DNA of 60,603 bases, filler included, from Sandaracinaceae bacterium (GTDB lineage Bacteria > Myxococcota_A > Polyangia > Polyangiales > JADJQN01), in the NCBI GenBank assembly GCA_947483975.1. It is 4 parts of 4 records of this genome, joined end to end, with 100 filler letters (N's around TTAATTAATTAA, not from the genome) between each part and the next. Parts side by side here need not be neighbours in the genome. Positions count along the whole stretch, not along the records: positions 45,576 to 60,603 come from CANKOL010000101.1; 3 more parts are not named here. One strand, 5' to 3'. This document shows positions 48,001 to 54,000 of the stretch, piece after piece (the first letter of the stretch is position 1; each line of letters opens with the position of its first letter). Position numbers: made by a program.

Positions 48001-51000
48001 AGCAGGGAGCCTCCAGCGGGCTCCTGCGGCAAGCCGAGCTCACCCGCCATGGCCAGCGCGGCGGTCACGGCGACGTGCTCGACGGCCCCGAGCGAGAGGA
48101 GCTCCGTCCGCTCCGAGGCGCGTAGCCAGCTCACGAGCGGCGCGTCCGAGTGCAGCACGGCCCGTCGCCCCGCGTCGTCCCAACCCTCTCCACGTTCCTG
48201 CCCGCGGCTGTGCGCGAAGGCAAAGACGCAGTCGACGTGGAAGCTCGCGCGCAGCAGGCGAATCACTCGCGCGACGACGTCGTCCTCGGCGTCGCTCGGC
48301 GATGCGCTCAGCGCGAACTCGGCGAGCGCGCGCGTGTTCGAGAGCTCTTCGTCTAGCTCCTTGCGCGAACGGAAGAGGCGCTGCTCCGTCCGCACGAGGA
48401 CCTTCAGTTGCTCGTCGAGCGCTCGATTCTCTTCGCGGAGTCGCGCGAGCTCGTCATCGCCGCTCATCGTGTCGGGGGCGTCTCGTACACCGCGCAGAGC
48501 GCCACGGAGTAGTTGTGGAAGAACGGGACTCCATCGACGGGCGCGATCTCGCCGTACGTGTGCACGCCAATCCAGGGGATATCTGCTCCCAAGATCGTCT
48601 GCAGCGGCTCGATCAGCTCGCTCGCCGCGAGCTCCCCGAAGAGGATCCGCCCGCGCCCTGCACAGTCGAATTGCAGCACGAACGCGGGAGTCTGCCCCGG
48701 TGCGGCTTGCCTCAGCGCCGCTGCGCATTCGGTCCCGCTGCCGCGGATCAGCTCCCCGTCTCGGCGAGTCACGCGCACCCTCGTGCCGGTCTCGATGCCG
48801 CCTCCCGGGAAGAACAACGCCCCGTTCTCCTTGTCGAGGACCATCGGAGTGCGAATCACATATCGCGGAGTGTCGCTCGAGAGCATGCGTCGGATATCGA
48901 CTCCGATGCAGAGGTAGATGATCCCCTCCGCGGTCAGGTCCTCCGGGTCGCCGTCCAGGTACTCCTTGAAGACCTCCCACGCGGGGAGCCCATCGATCGT
49001 GAAGACCCAGCCGTCCTGCGCGCGCGTGACGACGCGGTCGAGGCCGACGGTGGTGCAGCCGTGGCTCACGCCGACGTGCAGCGTCGCCGCGCCCCGGAGG
49101 ACGAAGCCCGCGACCGCATCGGAGACCACGCGCTCGTCGAGGTACTGGTGCGTCTTCTCGAAGAGCATCGCGTCGCCCGCGGAGCCCCCGACGATCGGCA
49201 CGCTCCTCGGCAGCTCCGCCGCGAGCCCGTCGATCAGCGCGCTCGCGTTGCCTCGAATGCCGTCCGGCAGGATGACGACGCACACCGGAGCTGCGCCGTC
49301 GACGGGGCCGCACAGCGTCGCGATGGTGCGCCCCGCCCCCGCGGGATCCGCGTGATAGCCCTCGACCAGGAATGGCTCGAAGCGCACTGAGTCGCTGCTC
49401 ACCGCGAGCACGGCGACGGCGAATTCGACCTCGTGTGTCGCGCTCCCCCCGATGACGCCTTCCCCAGAGCACCCCGAGAGGCGCGCGCCCGGGAGCACGC
49501 CAGCAATCGCCGCGAGCACCTCCGCCTGCGGATATGCCCCCGTCGCGAAGACGAGCGCGAACGTCGCCGCGTGGTCGCCGAGTGAGCGAGATGCCGCCTC
49601 GGCGGCTGCTCGGCCTGCCTCGCTCGCATCTGTATGCCGACTCACGCCGACGGCTGCCCTGAGCATGTCTTCCTATTCCGCGCTAACTCGCCGCTCGACG
49701 CGGTCCCCGGGAAAGGGAGCTGGAACACCAGAATATCGCAACCGCGGCCGTGCGTCGATAGCGACGGCGGCGTGCGCGCGCGACGCGACCGCGCCCACTC
49801 GCGTCAGTCCGGCGCGAGGAGCGCCGCCGTGATGATGTTGAGCTTGTAGCGCTCCTTCGCGATCTGCTGAATCGCCGCGGCGATGTGGGGATTGTCGCGG
49901 AGGATCCGGCTGAAATCGGCCCGCTGCAGCACGAACAGATCGCACGCCCGGCGCGCGCGCACGTCGGCGGTGCGTGGCTTCGACATCAACACGCCGATCT
50001 CTCCGAAGATGTCCCCGTCGGACAGCACCTTGAGCACCTGCCCAGTGTCGCTCAGCACCTCGACCTTGCCGCGCGCGAGCAAGTAGAGCTCCTGACCGAG
50101 CTCGCCCTTGCGGATGATCAGCTCGCCCGCCGCCACCTGCTTCGAGCGCAGCGCCATGATCACCTGCTCGAGGAAGACCATGTCGCCGTCCTTGAAGAGC
50201 GGCACCTTGCGCAGCACCTCCTCGGTGACGACCTCGTGCCAGCGGCGCCCGTCCTTCGCGACGAGATCCGCGGCCGCCTTCGGCCCCCAGCTGCCGCGCG
50301 CGTAGTTCGGAAACTCCGCGGGCGTCTCCGCCCAATGGTCCATGATCGGCTGCGCGACGCGCCACGCGGCCTCGACGAGATCGCCGCGGGAGAAGAGCGT
50401 CGCGTCCCCGTGCGAGCACGCGTAGAGCATCACCTCGTAGCCCGTGTAGCGCGACGCCTTGAACGCGTCGCCGTACGCGAACTTCATGTTGACCGGCTGG
50501 AGCCTCATCGTCGGCCCGGGGATCTTCGCCTGGAACTGAATCTCGATGCCCTGATACGGCTGAATGTGGAAGATCAGCCGATTCGCGTTGAGGGCGGGCA
50601 CCGCCGTCCCGCGAAAGAGCACCTCGGGTGCCTTCTTGAACTCGACGATGATCTCCGTGCCGCGCTTCCACAGCGCCTTGCCGGAGCGCAGGTAGATGGG
50701 CACTCCCTCCCACCGCCAATTGTCGATGTGGAGGCGCGCCGCAGCGTAGGTCTCCGTCTTGGACGCCGGATTGACGTCCTTCTCCTCACGATAGCCGGGC
50801 TTGAGTGGGTTGCCCTTGTCGTCGACGGAAGGGCCGTATTGGCCGCGCACGACGAAGCGCTCGACCTCTTCCGCCGAATACGCGCGGACCGACTCGAGCA
50901 GCTTCGCCTTCTCGTTGCGGATCGCGTCAGGCGCGAACGAGCCGGGGACCTCCATGCACAGATACGCGAGCATCTGGAACATGTGATTCTGCATCATGTC

Positions 51001-54000
51001 GCGGAGCACCCCGGAGGAGTCGTAGTAGCCAGCGCGTCCGCCGACGTCGACCGCTTCGGAGACGTTGAACTGGATGTTGTCGATGTAGTTCTTGTTCCAG
51101 AGCGGCTCGAACATCCCGTTCGAGAAGCGGAACGCGAGCAGGTTCTGGACGGTCTCTTTTCCGAGGTAGTGATCGACTCGGTAGATCTGGTCTTCACGCC
51201 AGTTGGCGAGCACGTCCTCGTTCAGCTTCAGCGCGGACGCGAGATCGGTGCCGAAAGGCTTCTCGACGATGATGCGCTTCCAGCCGTCGCCGTCCTTGAA
51301 GCCGCTCTGATGCAGGTTGTCGCAGAGCAGTCCGAAGAAGCGCGGCGCCGTCGCGAAGTAGAAGAGCACGTTGCCCTCCGCCGCGTACTCCGCGTCGAGT
51401 CGCTTGACCTCGCCCTTGAGCGTCTCGAACACGCCCAAGTCGCTGAACCCGCCTTGCACGTAGTGAAAGCGGCTCACGAGGTCGTCCCAGACGTCCTGCT
51501 CGAACTCGCCGCGCGTGTGAAAGGCCTTGATGTCTTCGCTCATCCGCGCCCGAAAGGACTCGGTCGTCAGGGCGTCCATCGCCGTCCCGAGCAGCGCGAA
51601 GCCCTTCGAGAGCAGCCCGTCGCAGGCGAGGTTGTAGAGCGCGGGCACGAGCAGGCGCTTGGTGAGGTCGCCTGACGCACCGAAGATCAGCATCACGTGC
51701 GGCGCGCACGACGGACTCGCCTCAGGCGCGTCGGCGCCGAGCGTGCGGAGGACTTGAGCGGCGGGGGCGTCGGCGGTCATGGGGCGGAGTTCCTTCTCGT
51801 CAGCGACACGGGGCACCGGGCACGGGACACGAGGCACGAACCGTCAACGTCGGCGCTTCTTCGCGAACAACACCCCGGCGAGCACGACGAGTCCGGCGAC
51901 GGCGCCGGCGCCGAGCACCATCCAGAACGACCTCGCCGCGACGACTCCCTCCGGCGGATTGTTCATGCCGAAGACCGCGACGAGCGTCGCGAGCGGAAAG
52001 AAGAACGCGACGAGGCGATTGAGCGTGCGCGCCTCGAGCGTCGCCTCGAGCGCGAGTCGAGCCTGCTCCTCGGAGCTACGCGCCAGCGAGAACTCCATGC
52101 CCGCTCGCGCGTCGTTCGCGACGAGATCCACCGCGCGCTCGACGTCTGCGGCGCGGTCGCGCGCGTTGATCAGCGCGTGCTCGTCGGGCTCCGCGTTCCG
52201 TCCGGCGTCGATCGCCGCGAGCAGGTGTCGGCTCGAGCGCAGCAGCGGATTGACCCAGCGCAGCACCGCGAAGTAGTCGGCAGGTGTCGACGCGCTCTCC
52301 ACCTGCTGATCGAGCGCGTGAATGCTCTTCGCGTACGAGTCGAGGTGCGCCTCGAGCGCCGCGAGTCCGCCGGCCTCCGGGCTGCTCTGCCACTCGCCGT
52401 CGGGCGCGCGCCAGAAGAACGCGCCGTGCCGCACCTCGTCGTCGTCGGGAGTCGGCGTGCGGTGCAGGACGAGCAGCAGGTGTCCCTCCGCGCTGATCGC
52501 GCGCTGACGCCCGGCGGCATCTCCGAGGCGCTTGGTCACCGCCTCGGGGAGCACCCAGCTTGTCGGGAGAAACGAGCGACCTTCGTTCGGCATCGGGCCC
52601 GAGTCTAGGTGGATGCGCGCCGCGCGTCACCGTCCGTCGCTGCGTGCCGCGCGATCGGCGCCGTGCGCTCAGCCGCTCAGCCGCTCAGCCGCTCAGCCGC
52701 TCAGCCGCTCAGCCGCTCAGCCGCTCAGCCGCTCAGCCCCTCGCGCACCCAGACCGTCCACTCGCCCCGCTTCTCGTGCGCGACGACCCAGCCCGCGCCA
52801 GGCCCGGTGTAGTCGGAGCCGATCGAAAGCGCGAGCGCGTCCTTGCCGTGCGCGTCCTGCACGATCCCGGCGAAGCCCGAGTGCGCGTCGCAGAGGTCGG
52901 TCCACTCCGACGCGGCGACGATGCCCGCGCGCTGCCGAGCGGCGATCAGCGCGGCGATCTCCTCGCGCATCCCCCAGTCGAAGCAGTCGGGCCAATAGAC
53001 CGAGGGCGTGCCCGGCATCGAGAGCACGAACGCATAAGCGCTCGACTTGAAGTGCGGCGGACACTCCCAGTGTCGCTGCCCGCTGCCCGCGGCACAGGAG
53101 GGAGAAGCGCCGGTGTCGTGGTTGTCCACGTAGGTGACCGCGACCTCGCGGTCGCCGCGTCGTCGGCTCGCGTTGAGGCCGAGTCGCAGGTTGCGTGGGT
53201 CCGCCGTCTGGACCTGCTTCTTCAGCAGGACGTCGTAGGCGCAGCTGCGCGTGTCGCACGCCCAGCCGACGATGCGCGCTCGCTCGTGCGTGCCATAGCG
53301 CTCGATCATCGGATCATCGGGTCGCGTCGGGTCGCCCTGCCAGTACTCGCCCATCGAGAAATACGGCGCTTTCGGGGTCTCCTCGAGGAGCGCGATGACG
53401 TCCTCGACCGAATAGCCCCAGACGAAGTCCCAGCGATATCCGTCGACGCCGCACTCCTCGAGCAGCTCGTTCATCGCGGCTCGGATGCGCGCGTGCACGA
53501 CGGGATAGTCGAGCGCGAGGTCGTTCTCGCCGCGGTCGAAGCCGCCGCCCGTGTCGTGCCCGCCGACCGCCCAACAGGGGCCCGGCCACTCCCACACATC
53601 CTCGCGCATCCTGCTCTTGTCGCGGTGGTTGATGACGACATCGACGATCACGCGCACGCCGAGCGCATGCAGCTTGGTGACCAGCGCGGTCAGCTCAGCC
53701 TTGCTGCCATAGCGGGAGTCGAGGTCGAAGTCGTGCCAGAAGTAGCCCTCCCCGCCGCCGCTCCGCTCGCCCGATTGCCACTCCGAGTCATCCCGCCAGG
53801 GCGGCGGCAAATAGACGATCGTGAAGCCGAGCGCCGCGACCTGCTCGGCCATATCCGTCAGGACTCGATACCAGGACTCCGCGCGCCCATCCATGGTGCC
53901 CGTGCCGCGGGTCTTCACGAGGTTCCAGTGAAACGCCTGCAGGATGACGTCGCCGCCGTCGCCCCGCGCGATCTCGTGGCCTGGGAGCCGATCGACGGTG

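What a model noticed while it worked through the whole genome (the two positions that open the first line are those of the whole stretch)
49804..51780. Glucose-6-phosphate dehydrogenase fused to a cyclic-nucleotide-binding domain
g01944 is a full-length G6PD (G6PD_N + G6PD_C) with a C-terminal cNMP-binding domain whose phosphate-binding cassette (FGEIGVL..PRTADVRA) is intact, beside a second, plain G6PD (g03130) elsewhere. Boldest reading: entry into the oxidative pentose-phosphate pathway is switched directly by cAMP or cGMP in this lineage, an allosteric mechanism not known for any G6PD. New would be a second-messenger-gated central-metabolic dehydrogenase, and a ready-made cNMP-responsive NADPH module for engineering.
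Evidence so far: Pfam: G6PD_N 32-213 (E 1e-59), G6PD_C 215-515 (E 1e-112), cNMP_binding 547-630 (E 1e-20); 42.6% identity to Synechocystis Zwf over residues 27-517. Search with residues 500-658: 313 proteins E<=1e-3, of the 120 listed all carry PF02781+PF00027 (and PF00479 unless truncated), 620-697 aa when whole, from Polyangiaceae, Kofleriaceae, 'Deltaproteobacteria' and Planctomycetota bins, all named only 'glucose-6-phosphate dehydrogenase' where named. In an alignment of 26 such proteins (73-88% identical) G593, E594, L598, P602, R603 and A605 of the cassette are invariant. Full-text search for G6PD + cyclic nucleotide-binding domain + fusion: 2 papers, neither on this (listing only, call 44). 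Other cNM [...]
(Added by a program. Inside this text positions count along the whole contig: they may not be those of the stretch shown here. "Call 12" and the like, gene names such as g00115 and contig names such as C1 are that model's own, and its searches are not shown. The text may have been shortened before it was handed on; [...] marks where a part breaks off. The agent that wrote the report below was given it as the finding of a first reader that could run no searches.)

Follow-up and report, generated by a model that had tools for sequence, protein, structure and literature searches.

The report
G6PD fused to cyclic-nucleotide sensor
A central sugar-oxidising enzyme here carries a built-in cyclic-nucleotide sensor domain, which suggests direct second-messenger control of the enzyme; the family occurs only in uncultured bacteria so far and has not been tested or described.

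Summary
Window 49804-51780 (minus strand) encodes a 658-aa protein with a full G6PD (G6PD_N, G6PD_C; TIGR00871 at 572 bits, cutoff 400.6). A canonical cyclic-nucleotide-binding (CNB) domain follows after a linker of about 4 residues.

The fusion is not an assembly artefact. 60 of 78 related loci from species-representative genomes carry it, and all 78 records are MAGs. The fused proteins form one clade (SH-aLRT 100). G593, E594 and R603 of the phosphate-binding cassette are invariant in 100 of 100 members. dN/dS is 0.24-0.33 for the CNB domain and 0.12-0.16 for G6PD.

- The genome also has an ungated zwf-pgl-gnd operon.
- The fusion is patchy: 10 of 401 sampled genomes of the order, and not found in the sampled same-genus genome.
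- The beta2-alpha2 arginine that binds the 2'-phosphate of NADP+ is replaced by Met-Asp, and 96 of 100 members lack it. By a published criterion this predicts NAD+-preferring or relaxed cofactor use, not an NADPH module.

The three class III cyclases found in the genome look adenylate-type, so cAMP is the likelier ligand.

Eight full-text searches found no description. I rate it a new variant of a known kind. Regulation remains inferred.

The parts
49804..51780 (-). Whole CDS (658 aa plus stop) of the G6PD-CNB fusion protein
   Evidence: ORF and translation. The ATG at 51780 matches the N-termini of homologues. Pfam and NCBIfam hits.
51142..51687 (-). G6PD_N Rossmann (coenzyme) domain, residues 32-213. 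It includes the GASGDL fingerprint (51664-51681) and EKPFG.
   Evidence: PF00479 at 3.2e-59. G34, G37, D38, E173, K174, P175 and G177 are invariant in 150 rows. Coordinates checked.
51574..51579 (-). Beta2-alpha2 loop residues Met68-Asp69, at the position of the NADP+ 2'-phosphate-binding Arg of other G6PDs
   Evidence: M68 aligns with R46 of L. mesenteroides G6PD. This column holds Arg in 4 of 100 fused rows and 40 of 50 plain G6PDs. The next residue is D or E in 81 of 100 fused rows. The genome's own plain paralogue has GVAR-R.
51154..51180 (-). RVDHYLGKE substrate-binding and catalytic motif, residues 201-209
   Evidence: Read directly. Counts in 150 rows: D203 149, H204 148, K208 149. The motif is named as key in PMC8546961 (passage).
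50983..50985 (-). His266, equivalent to the catalytic His240 of L. mesenteroides G6PD
   Evidence: Invariant in 150 of 150 rows. It aligns in 'rdmmqnhmfq' against 'ldmiqnhtmq' of 1dpg/1e77. The PDB title of 2dpg names H240.
50236..51138 (-). G6PD_C beta+alpha domain, residues 215-515
   Evidence: PF02781 at 6e-112, covering profile positions 1-296 of 296. The model superposes on L. mesenteroides G6PD with TM 0.94-0.95 normalised to the target.
50224..50235 (-). Four-residue junction (EVVT, 516-519) between the end of G6PD and the first CNB helix
   Evidence: DSSP of the model shows the last G6PD helix at 501-508 and the first CNB helix at 520-524. Block pLDDT across 501-530 is 96, 92 and 82. 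There is no low-complexity linker in any of 22 aligned members.
49816..50223 (-). Cyclic-nucleotide-binding domain, residues 520-655: N-terminal helices, 8-stranded beta roll, and alphaB/alphaC helices
   Evidence: PF00027 covers 547-630. The best solved relatives by sequence are PKA-R (5kbf, 1.3e-29), Plasmodium PKG and the channel SthK. Model secondary structure.
49954..50007 (-). Phosphate-binding cassette FGEIGVLMSKPRTADVRA, residues 592-609
   Evidence: G593, E594 and R603 are present in 100 of 100 fused members and A605 in 98. Position 604 is T in 63, N in 27 and other residues in 10.
49846..49890 (-). AlphaC helix (PHIAAAIQQIAKERY, 631-645), the putative lid over the base
   Evidence: Helix 631-645 in the model. 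A641 and R644 are present in 100 of 100 members, and position 645 is Y or F in 97. The lid role is inferred by analogy with other CNB domains, which I recall and did not test.

Best explanation
The gene encodes an active glucose-6-phosphate dehydrogenase isozyme. Its C-terminus runs, with almost no linker, into a canonical cyclic-nucleotide-binding domain.

The most likely mechanism has three steps:
1. The CNB domain binds a 3',5'-cyclic nucleotide. I favour cAMP over cGMP at about 70:30.
2. Binding rearranges the N-terminal helices and the alphaB/alphaC lid of the CNB domain.
3. This movement passes straight into the C-terminal segment of the G6PD beta+alpha domain. In human G6PD this region clamps the 'structural' NADP+ next to the dimer interface and communicates with the G6P site.

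By analogy with other CNB-controlled enzymes, I slightly favour activation by relief of autoinhibition, at about 55:45.

In this genome the enzyme is an accessory isozyme beside an ungated zwf-pgl-gnd operon. Because it lacks the 2'-phosphate-binding arginine, it probably accepts NAD+, either preferring it or using both cofactors.

Shown here: the architecture, intact catalytic and ligand-contact residues, purifying selection, a single origin, and the presence of cyclases.

Inferred: ligand binding, ligand identity, allosteric coupling and its sign, and cofactor preference.
For: Architecture and intactness:
- Searches give the domain structure.
- The catalytic residues E173, K174, P175, H266 and K368 are invariant in 150 of 150 aligned G6PDs. 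D203, H204 and K208 are present in 148-149 of 150.

The fusion recurs:
- 60 of 78 loci carry it. 51 are uninterrupted, 3 are cut by contig ends and 6 are interrupted by frame breaks or a stop.
- All 120 listed database proteins have PF02781+PF00027.

Single origin:
- 53 fused rows plus 4 broken gene calls form one side of a branch with SH-aLRT 100. 67 plain G6PDs lie on the other side.
- Pairwise identities of the two domains co-vary with r=0.86 over 4950 pairs.

Selection:
- dN/dS is 0.24-0.33 for CNB and 0.12-0.16 for G6PD in 6 comparisons with pS 0.40-0.49.

Ligand site:
- G593, E594 and R603 are present in 100 of 100 members, and A641 and R644 of alphaC in 100 of 100.
- The closest solved CNB domains by sequence are cAMP- or cGMP-binding ones.

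Rigid coupling:
- The junction is 4 residues long. The full-length model has pLDDT 89.8 and pTM 0.87.

Site of attachment:
- Human G6PD chains align to query 26-513 against residues 30-502, so the CNB starts where the human C-terminal tail lies.

Signal source:
- The genome has 3 PF00211 cyclase domains and 17 CNB matches.
- All three cyclases have Lys in KxxGD and T, T or D at the second specificity position. I recall this as the adenylate-cyclase pattern.
- In locus L028 an FHA-GAF-cyclase gene lies directly downstream of the fusion gene.

Cofactor:
- Searches give the column counts and alignments.
- PMC4807051 (abstract and passages) and PMC8546961 (passages) give the published criterion.
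Against: - There is no biochemistry for any member.
- Every record is a MAG, so there is no strain in which to test it.
- No gene neighbour is conserved family-wide. A cyclase is adjacent in only 1 of the 16 loci whose flanks were scanned.
- Position 604 after the cassette Arg varies (T 63, N 27, I/V/S/R 10), so specificity cannot be read from it. The PKG domain aligned also has R-T-A, which leaves cGMP open.
- The genome is 81% complete, so a guanylate cyclase could be missing from the assembly.
- pTM 0.87 is dominated by the G6PD part. I could not inspect PAE or coordinates, so the domain interface is not known.
- Cofactor inference has three weaknesses. [quoted passage not shown] Four basal fused members keep the Arg. 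In two genomes (92% and 94% complete) an Arg-less fused gene is the only G6PD_C match, which argues that it can still supply NADPH there.
Confidence: 0.6

Rival explanations
1. The CNB domain binds a cyclic nucleotide, but the output is not catalytic rate. It could instead control oligomer assembly, stability, localisation, or recruitment of a partner protein. An example would be assembling the enzyme with glycan-degrading or PPP enzymes.
For: The ligand-contact residues are conserved, as in the main reading. In human G6PD the C-terminal region governs dimer and tetramer stability (PMC7848525 and PMC11448927 passages). A GH63/MGH1-like hydrolase is adjacent in 7 loci and gnd lies nearby in 4.
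Against: In G6PD, oligomeric state and activity are coupled (same papers), so this shades into the main reading. No partner gene is conserved across the family.
Confidence: 0.15
2. The CNB fold is a ligand-independent structural or dimerisation appendage, or it binds a ligand other than cAMP/cGMP, as some CRP/FNR-type domains do.
For: CNB-fold domains with other ligands exist (recalled). dN/dS of the CNB domain is about twice that of the G6PD part.
Against: The residues that contact the ribose and cyclic phosphate in canonical CNB domains (Gly-Glu and Arg of the cassette) are invariant in 100 of 100 members across MAGs labelled as several phyla. A purely structural role would not require this. 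The best sequence matches are genuine cAMP/cGMP binders at E 1e-27 to 1e-29, not CRP/FNR sensors of other ligands.
Confidence: 0.12
3. The G6PD moiety no longer acts as an enzyme, as in the catalytically dead PGK-like/CNB protein of trypanosomes. On this view the protein is a cNMP-binding scaffold or sink.
For: There is precedent for a CNB domain on a dead glycolytic enzyme (PMC7729029 passages).
Against: All catalytic and substrate-binding motifs are intact and invariant. TIGR00871 scores above its equivalog cutoff. dN/dS of the G6PD part is 0.12-0.16. In two genomes it is the only G6PD_C match.
Confidence: 0.03
4. The fusion is an assembly or gene-calling artefact that joins two neighbouring genes.
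For: The source is a fragmented MAG (524 contigs).
Against: 51 independent assemblies have one uninterrupted frame, with a conserved 4-residue junction. Some lie on contigs of 0.75 to 3.3 Mb.
Confidence: 0.01

Closest known systems
Canonical bacterial Zwf/G6PD (L. mesenteroides 1DPG; Synechocystis G6PDH 9EMM; Z. mobilis 7XHL)
   Same: Same fold: TM 0.87-0.95 normalised to the target. Same catalytic motifs. Sequence E-values range from 2.5e-131 (9emm) to 1e-91 (1e77).
   Different: It has an extra 140-residue C-terminal CNB domain. It lacks the beta2-alpha2 Arg (M68 against R46 of the L. mesenteroides enzyme). It forms its own clade, 45-49% identical to the nearest plain G6PDs. No OpcA family match was found in the genome, which is 81% complete.
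NAD+-preferring or dual G6PD isozymes lacking the beta2-alpha2 Arg (P. putida G6PDH-B with His; K. hansenii, B. cepacia and P. fluorescens enzymes, as listed in PMC8546961)
   Same: The arginine that binds the 2'-phosphate of NADP+ is absent. The enzyme occurs as an additional isozyme beside an Arg-containing one (paper passages).
   Different: The residue here is Met followed by Asp, not His. No kinetic data exist. None of those enzymes is reported with a sensor domain in the passages I read.
Mycobacterial cAMP-gated protein acetyltransferase Pat (CNB-GNAT)
   Same: A CNB domain is covalently attached to an enzyme. I recall that cAMP relieves autoinhibition there. The NCBIfam model for it matches the CNB part here (41.3 bits, residues 528-645).
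   Different: The score is far below the cutoff of 460, so this protein is not a member. The output there is an acetyltransferase, and the CNB is N-terminal (recalled).
CNB domains of PKA regulatory subunits, PKG and the bacterial channel SthK
   Same: These are the best sequence matches to residues 518-658, at E 1.3e-29 to 2.4e-27. The cassette is the same, FGE...R.A.
   Different: Those domains control kinases or channels. None is attached to a dehydrogenase.
Human G6PD 'structural NADP+' site and C-terminal tail
   Same: It is a nucleotide-binding allosteric element at the C-terminus, beside the dimer interface, that communicates with the G6P site (PMC7848525 and PMC11448927 passages). The CNB domain begins at the equivalent point of the chain.
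   Different: There the ligand is NADP+, held by a short tail and the beta-sheet. Here a whole autonomous domain with a different ligand is attached. The equivalence of mechanism is inference.
Trypanosome flagellar PGK-like protein with a CNB domain (PGKL)
   Same: A central-carbon enzyme fold is followed by a CNB-like domain (PMC7729029 passages).
   Different: PGKL lacks the catalytic residues and is said to lack activity. The G6PD here is intact.
G6PD with a C-terminal CBS pair (P0233, 630 aa, metagenomic)
   Same: A small-ligand sensor module is attached to the same end of a complete G6PD.
   Different: The sensor fold is different (CBS), and the protein lies outside the fused clade. I saw only this one representative.

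Membership tests
Glucose-6-phosphate dehydrogenase (zwf, TIGR00871 / PF00479+PF02781) | Scores above the curated equivalog cutoff over the full profile | tested here: met
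   572.2 bits against a cutoff of 400.6, covering profile positions 2-485 of 486. Both Pfam domains are full length.
Glucose-6-phosphate dehydrogenase (zwf, TIGR00871 / PF00479+PF02781) | Coenzyme fingerprint GxxGDL and the EKPxG motif | tested here: met
   G34-A-S-G37-D38-L39 and E173-K174-P175-F-G177. G34, G37, D38, E173, K174, P175 and G177 are invariant in 150 rows.
Glucose-6-phosphate dehydrogenase (zwf, TIGR00871 / PF00479+PF02781) | RIDHYLGKE substrate motif and the catalytic His (L. mesenteroides H240) | tested here: met
   RVDHYLGKE at 201-209. H266 aligns to the His of 'qnh' in 1dpg.
Glucose-6-phosphate dehydrogenase (zwf, TIGR00871 / PF00479+PF02781) | Catalyses G6P oxidation | not testable with these tools
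   Requires an enzyme assay.
NADP+-specific G6PD subclass | Arg in the beta2-alpha2 loop that binds the 2'-phosphate (E. coli R50, L. mesenteroides R46) | tested here: not met
   Met68 stands at that column and Asp69 follows. Arg is present in 4 of 100 fused members and 40 of 50 plain G6PDs.
Cyclic-nucleotide-binding domain (PF00027) | Scores above the Pfam gathering threshold | tested here: met
   72.7 bits against 27.5, covering profile positions 2-89 of 89.
Cyclic-nucleotide-binding domain (PF00027) | Phosphate-binding cassette with Gly-Glu (ribose) and Arg (cyclic phosphate) | tested here: met
   F592-G593-E594 ... R603-T604-A605. G, E and R are present in 100 of 100 members. The assignment of contacts is recalled.
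Cyclic-nucleotide-binding domain (PF00027) | Eight-stranded beta roll flanked by N-terminal helices and alphaB/alphaC | tested here: met
   DSSP of the model shows helices 520-524 and 534-543, strands between 545 and 619 with the cassette helix at 594-599, and helices 620-629 and 631-645. This is a prediction, not a solved structure.
Cyclic-nucleotide-binding domain (PF00027) | Binds cAMP or cGMP | not testable with these tools
   Requires a binding assay.
CRP/FNR transcription factors | C-terminal helix-turn-helix DNA-binding domain after the CNB domain | tested here: not met
   Pfam finds no HTH family, and only about 13 residues follow alphaC. The NCBIfam CRP model scores 42.2 bits against a cutoff of 266.
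Mycobacterial Pat (CNB-GNAT) | GNAT acetyltransferase domain and a score above the equivalog cutoff | tested here: not met
   41.3 bits against 460, and only the CNB part matches.
OpcA-dependent (cyanobacterial-type) G6PDH | OpcA partner encoded in the genome | tested here: inconclusive
   PF10128 was not found in the genome, which is 81% complete. The control rang in 3 of 14 genomes. I searched only this one OpcA family.

The most novel reading that the evidence does not exclude
This would be the first central-carbon dehydrogenase gated directly by a cyclic nucleotide. On this reading, cAMP made by the organism's class III cyclases binds the C-terminal CNB domain. Acting through the same C-terminal and dimer-interface hotspot that the structural NADP+ uses in human G6PD, it switches on an NAD+-accepting G6PD isozyme. 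Glucose from storage or scavenged alpha-glucans is then burnt through the oxidative branch on demand, without transcription. The alpha-glucan link rests on neighbours: an alpha-amylase-family gene here and a GH63-like hydrolase in 7 related loci. The module arose once and has spread among MAGs labelled Myxococcota, Planctomycetota, Acidobacteriota and other phyla.
Probability: 0.35. Interest if true: 0.8.

Novelty: new variant of a known kind. Interest (0 to 1): 0.6.

Why it matters
In the G6PD papers I read, the enzyme is controlled by redox state, partner proteins or covalent modification. The 2024 review of G6PD types I searched lists NAD(P)+-dependent, 6PGL-fused and F420-dependent forms and never mentions cyclic nucleotides (PMC11448927, 0 occurrences).

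A G6PD with its own cAMP/cGMP sensor would tie a second messenger to flux at the glycolysis/PPP branch point in a single polypeptide. It would extend the short list of bacterial enzymes gated directly by cNMP. It would also offer a compact ligand-switchable dehydrogenase for engineering, though probably not an NADPH-specific one.

The fusion also marks the G6PD C-terminus as an evolvable allosteric port, because CNB here and a CBS pair in P0233 attach at the same end. This parallels the structural-NADP+ site of the human enzyme.

The claim is easy to test with one recombinant protein.

Tried and rejected
- Docking test: complex prediction with G6PD 27-517 and CNB 518-658 as separate chains returned 'no answer' (score 0.01, mark 0.32). 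This is not evidence either way.
- Conserved operon partner: none of the window's neighbours (FIST, CorA-like, alpha-amylase-family, trypsin-like, glyoxalase) has a match in any of the 78 loci. Histidine-kinase hits in 8 loci and DAO/GCV_T hits in 3 are generic and not adjacent.
- Promoter and terminator scan of 49400-52800: 0 sites of either kind.
- Entner-Doudoroff route: KDPG aldolase (PF01081) and edd (TIGR01196) were not found in the 81%-complete genome. The product most likely goes to Gnd on C222, but absence is not shown.
- Class I phosphodiesterase (PF00233): no match, but the control rang nowhere, so this is uninformative.
- Mis-binned contig: rejected. Parts of C101 match the same-genus genome G400 contig C3 at about 75% nucleotide identity.
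- Genome outside Myxococcota, which I considered after the low prevalence: rejected. The nearest named RpoB relatives are Myxococcales, Sandaracinaceae and Polyangiales MAGs at 82-86% identity.
- Reading cAMP against cGMP from the residue after the cassette Arg: rejected as undecidable, because T, N and other residues all occur there.

Full report
**Observation**

The window is four MAG contigs joined by runs of N at 15109-15208, 30301-30400 and 45476-45575. The finding lies on the last one, G000 contig C101, which is window 45576-60603. The assembly is 5.29 Mb in 524 contigs and 81% complete.

On the minus strand an ORF runs 49804-51837. The in-frame ATG at 51780 gives 658 aa. Homologues start at the same place.

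Pfam finds G6PD_N 32-213 (3.2e-59), G6PD_C 215-515 (6e-112) and cNMP_binding 547-630 (2.5e-20). The NCBIfam equivalog model for zwf scores 572 bits against a cutoff of 400.6.

It gives 313 proteins at E<=1e-3 among 1919 candidates, and all 120 listed carry PF02781+PF00027.

**Is the fusion real and maintained?**

A scan of one genome per species (GTDB representatives) with an alignment of the last 169 residues confirmed 117 relatives, of which 80 were kept, as 78 loci. Re-searching these with the whole protein gave four groups:
- 51 loci with one uninterrupted frame covering G6PD and CNB.
- 3 loci cut by contig ends (L004, L007, L023).
- 6 loci interrupted by frame breaks or a stop (L045, L049, L059, L060, L065, L080). 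Four of these six (L045, L060, L065, L080) come from 'MFD' isolates.
- 18 loci (L061-L064, L066-L079) that are other proteins with only a CNB domain.

All 78 record titles are MAGs, and none is an isolate. The submitters' labels include Polyangiaceae, Myxococcales, Haliangiales and Kofleriaceae. They also include Planctomycetota (Gemmatales, Pirellulales, Phycisphaerales), Acidobacteriota, Bdellovibrionota, Spartobacteria, Hydrogenedentes and Rokubacteria, plus a few proteobacterial labels. I did not verify any of these labels.

I built a quick maximum-likelihood tree of 124 rows and 511 columns with LG+G4 and SH-aLRT support only. It puts 53 fused rows plus 4 unlabelled rows on one side of a branch with support 100. 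The other side holds 67 plain G6PDs, including this genome's own plain paralogue. The four unlabelled rows (P0124, P0126, P0149, P0158) have truncated or partial G6PD_C matches, and one still shows part of a CNB domain. They are therefore broken gene calls of fused genes.

In the library clustered at 50% identity the family collapses to one full-length representative (P0122, 73% identical) plus fragments. The next-best plain G6PDs are 45-49% identical.

Within 100 fused sequences, mean pairwise identity is 77% for G6PD and 64% for CNB, and the two co-vary with r=0.86. This points to one fusion event inherited as a unit. For six close relatives, dN/dS is 0.12-0.16 in G6PD and 0.24-0.33 in CNB at pS 0.40-0.49. 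Both parts are therefore under purifying selection.

**The enzyme part**

The GxxGDL fingerprint, EKPxG, RVDHYLGKE and the catalytic His (H266) are all present. H266 aligns to the His of L. mesenteroides G6PD that the PDB titles call H240. These positions are invariant or nearly so in 150 aligned G6PDs.

With the 150-row alignment the full-length AlphaFold2 model reaches mean pLDDT 89.8 and pTM 0.87. The G6PD part superposes on L. mesenteroides G6PD with TM 0.94-0.95 normalised to the target.

At the end of beta2, most G6PDs have an Arg that binds the 2'-phosphate of NADP+ (E. coli R50, L. mesenteroides R46). Here the residue is Met68, followed by Asp69, and the HMMER alignment to 1dpg/1e77 places M68 opposite R46.

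In the 150-row alignment the column counts are:
- Position 68: Arg in 40 of 50 plain G6PDs but only 4 of 100 fused members. The fused set has M 63, T 11, I 6, L 5, N 5, F 4, R 4 and V 2.
- Position 69: D or E in 81 of 100 fused members.
- Position 43: Leu in 100 of 100 fused members against Lys in 38 of 50 plain ones.

Three of the four fused members with Arg are early-branching or outside the main Myxococcota/Planctomycetota group in the tree (L047, L054, L055). The fourth, P0121, was not in that tree.

This genome's plain paralogue, 43% identical, has GVAR-R and the Lys.

Fuentealba et al. show that R50 and K18 account for NADP+ discrimination in the E. coli enzyme. They also state that loop motifs are important but not sufficient (PMC4807051, abstract and passages). 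Volke et al. report that the most NAD+-specific G6PDs lack this Arg, and they classify Arg-less enzymes as NAD+-dependent or loosened (PMC8546961, passages).

By that criterion the fused enzyme should prefer NAD+ or use both cofactors, so 'NADPH module' is doubtful. There is a counterpoint. In two other fusion-bearing genomes (G217, 94% complete; G229, 92% complete) the Arg-less fused gene is the only G6PD_C match.

**The sensor part**

Residues 518-658 match solved cAMP/cGMP-binding domains best. These are an apicomplexan PKA regulatory subunit (5kbf, 1.3e-29), Plasmodium PKG, and the bacterial cAMP-gated channel SthK (2.4e-27).

The model shows the standard layout: N-terminal helices, a beta roll with the cassette helix at 594-599, and alphaB and alphaC helices.

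In 100 family members the conserved positions are:
- G593, E594 and R603: 100 each.
- A605: 98.
- A641 and R644 on alphaC: 100 each.
- Y or F at position 645: 97.

The residue after the cassette Arg is T in 63, N in 27 and other residues in 10. The PKG domain aligned has R-T-A and the PKA-R domain has R-A-A. I do not think specificity can be read from this position.

The genome holds three class III cyclase domains and 17 CNB matches. All three cyclases have Lys in the KxxGD motif and T, T or D at the second specificity position. I recall this as the adenylate-cyclase pattern, with guanylate cyclases having Glu and Cys. This rule is recalled, not tested here. On this basis I favour cAMP, but the genome is incomplete.

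**How the two parts are joined**

G6PD ends at about W514 and the first CNB helix starts at 520. The junction (EVVT) has no low-complexity linker in any aligned member and is modelled confidently.

Human G6PD chains align to query 26-513 against residues 30-502. The CNB domain therefore starts where the human C-terminal tail lies. In the human enzyme that tail and the beta-sheet sandwich the structural NADP+ beside the dimer interface, and their disorder propagates to the G6P site (PMC7848525, passages; PMC11448927, passages).

I infer that ligand-driven movement of the N-terminal helices of the CNB domain is transmitted through this same route. I could not inspect coordinates or PAE, so this remains inference.

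**Context and distribution**

The genome's RpoB is closest to that of Myxococcales, Sandaracinaceae and Polyangiales MAGs at 82-86% identity. I therefore take the genome to be a Polyangiales-type member of Myxococcota.

On contig C222 it has a canonical zwf-pgl-gnd cluster. The fused gene is thus an extra isozyme here.

The neighbours on C101 are:
- An alpha-amylase-family gene (52725-54464, minus strand).
- A weak CorA-like gene (51844-52593, minus strand).
- Downstream, a FIST protein and a hybrid histidine kinase.

None of these is conserved in related loci.

I scanned the flanks of 16 related loci against Pfam and then compared selected neighbours with all 78 loci by tblastn. The context proved variable:
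- A roughly 900-aa GH63/MGH1-like hydrolase is adjacent in 7 loci (L003, L005, L006, L037, L038, L046, L048).
- gnd lies nearby in 4 loci.
- An FHA-GAF-cyclase lies directly downstream in L028 only.

The fusion was found in 11 of 401 sampled genomes of the phylum. It was found in 10 of 401 sampled genomes of the order: 8 of 191 in one family, 1 of 31 in another, and 0 of 3 in the window's own family apart from G000.

The same-genus genome G400 (94% complete) lacks the fusion and has two plain G6PDs. Parts of the contig nonetheless match G400 at about 75% nucleotide identity, so the contig is not mis-binned.

Of 9 other fusion-bearing genomes tested, 7 have additional G6PD_C matches and 2 have none.

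**Literature**

I ran eight full-text searches.
- Eight papers hold both 'glucose-6-phosphate dehydrogenase' and 'cyclic nucleotide-binding'. I read passages of the two with most occurrences, PMC12750041 and PMC11190351, and they concern unrelated proteins. I judged the other six from titles and abstract openings only.
- 'Zwf'+'cNMP' and 'G6PD'+'cNMP-binding'+'fused' returned nothing.

Subscription journals are not covered, and I opened no supplements. The architecture is visible in public databases under the plain name 'glucose-6-phosphate dehydrogenase'.

**Verdict**

The best reading is a cyclic-nucleotide-gated G6PD isozyme, probably gated by cAMP and probably NAD+-accepting, at confidence 0.6. 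Ligand, sign and cofactor preference are all inferred. It is a new variant of known kinds (CNB-controlled enzymes and G6PD isozymes) and can be tested with one recombinant protein.

Noticed in passing
window 15109-15208, 30301-30400, 45476-45575: The window is four separate MAG contigs joined by runs of N. Only 45576-60603 (contig C101) is physically linked to the finding.
   Followed up: yes
window 46614-49666 (minus strand): Directly downstream of the fusion gene, on the same strand, lie a FIST_N/FIST_C sensor protein (48464-49666) and a hybrid histidine kinase with a receiver domain (within 46614-49472). The two longest ORFs overlap, so the kinase start is unclear. The pair is not conserved next to the fusion in other loci.
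   Followed up: partly
P0233 (630 aa, metagenomic protein): This is a complete G6PD with a C-terminal pair of CBS domains. It is a second kind of small-ligand sensor attached to the same end of G6PD, and it lies outside the CNB-fused clade.
   Followed up: partly
P0137 (768 aa) and P0192 (652 aa): P0137 is a G6PD fused C-terminally to a 6-phosphogluconolactonase domain. P0192 shows a remnant of such a domain N-terminal to G6PD.
   Followed up: no
P0132 (1011 aa): This protein has seven tandem cNMP_binding domains and a weak cupin match. It surfaced only because of its CNB similarity.
   Followed up: no
L003 9035-11734, L006 9945-12644, L038 5427-8306, L037, L046, L048, L005: A roughly 900-aa GH63/MGH1-like glycoside hydrolase sits next to the fusion gene in 7 loci from MAGs labelled as different phyla, and these hydrolases are 61-65% identical across those labels. 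The window's genome has a 47-51% identical homologue elsewhere (C3:37508-40162).
   Followed up: partly
L028 10604-12226: An FHA-GAF-class III cyclase gene lies directly downstream of the fusion gene on the same strand. The window's genome has a 52% identical homologue on C113.
   Followed up: partly
L046 and L048: The fused genes of MAGs labelled 'Proteobacteria bacterium' and 'Candidatus Hydrogenedentes bacterium' are nearly identical (tree branch lengths 0.002 and 0). Either one label or bin is wrong, or the transfer is very recent. L015, labelled Rhodocyclaceae with locus GC 55%, is about 80% identical to the window's protein.
   Followed up: no
window 54801-57374 (plus strand): A large DAO / FAO_M / GCV_T / GCV_T_C protein of the dimethylglycine or sarcosine dehydrogenase type lies here. 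A glyoxalase-family ORF (54112-54843, minus strand) lies just upstream of it.
   Followed up: no
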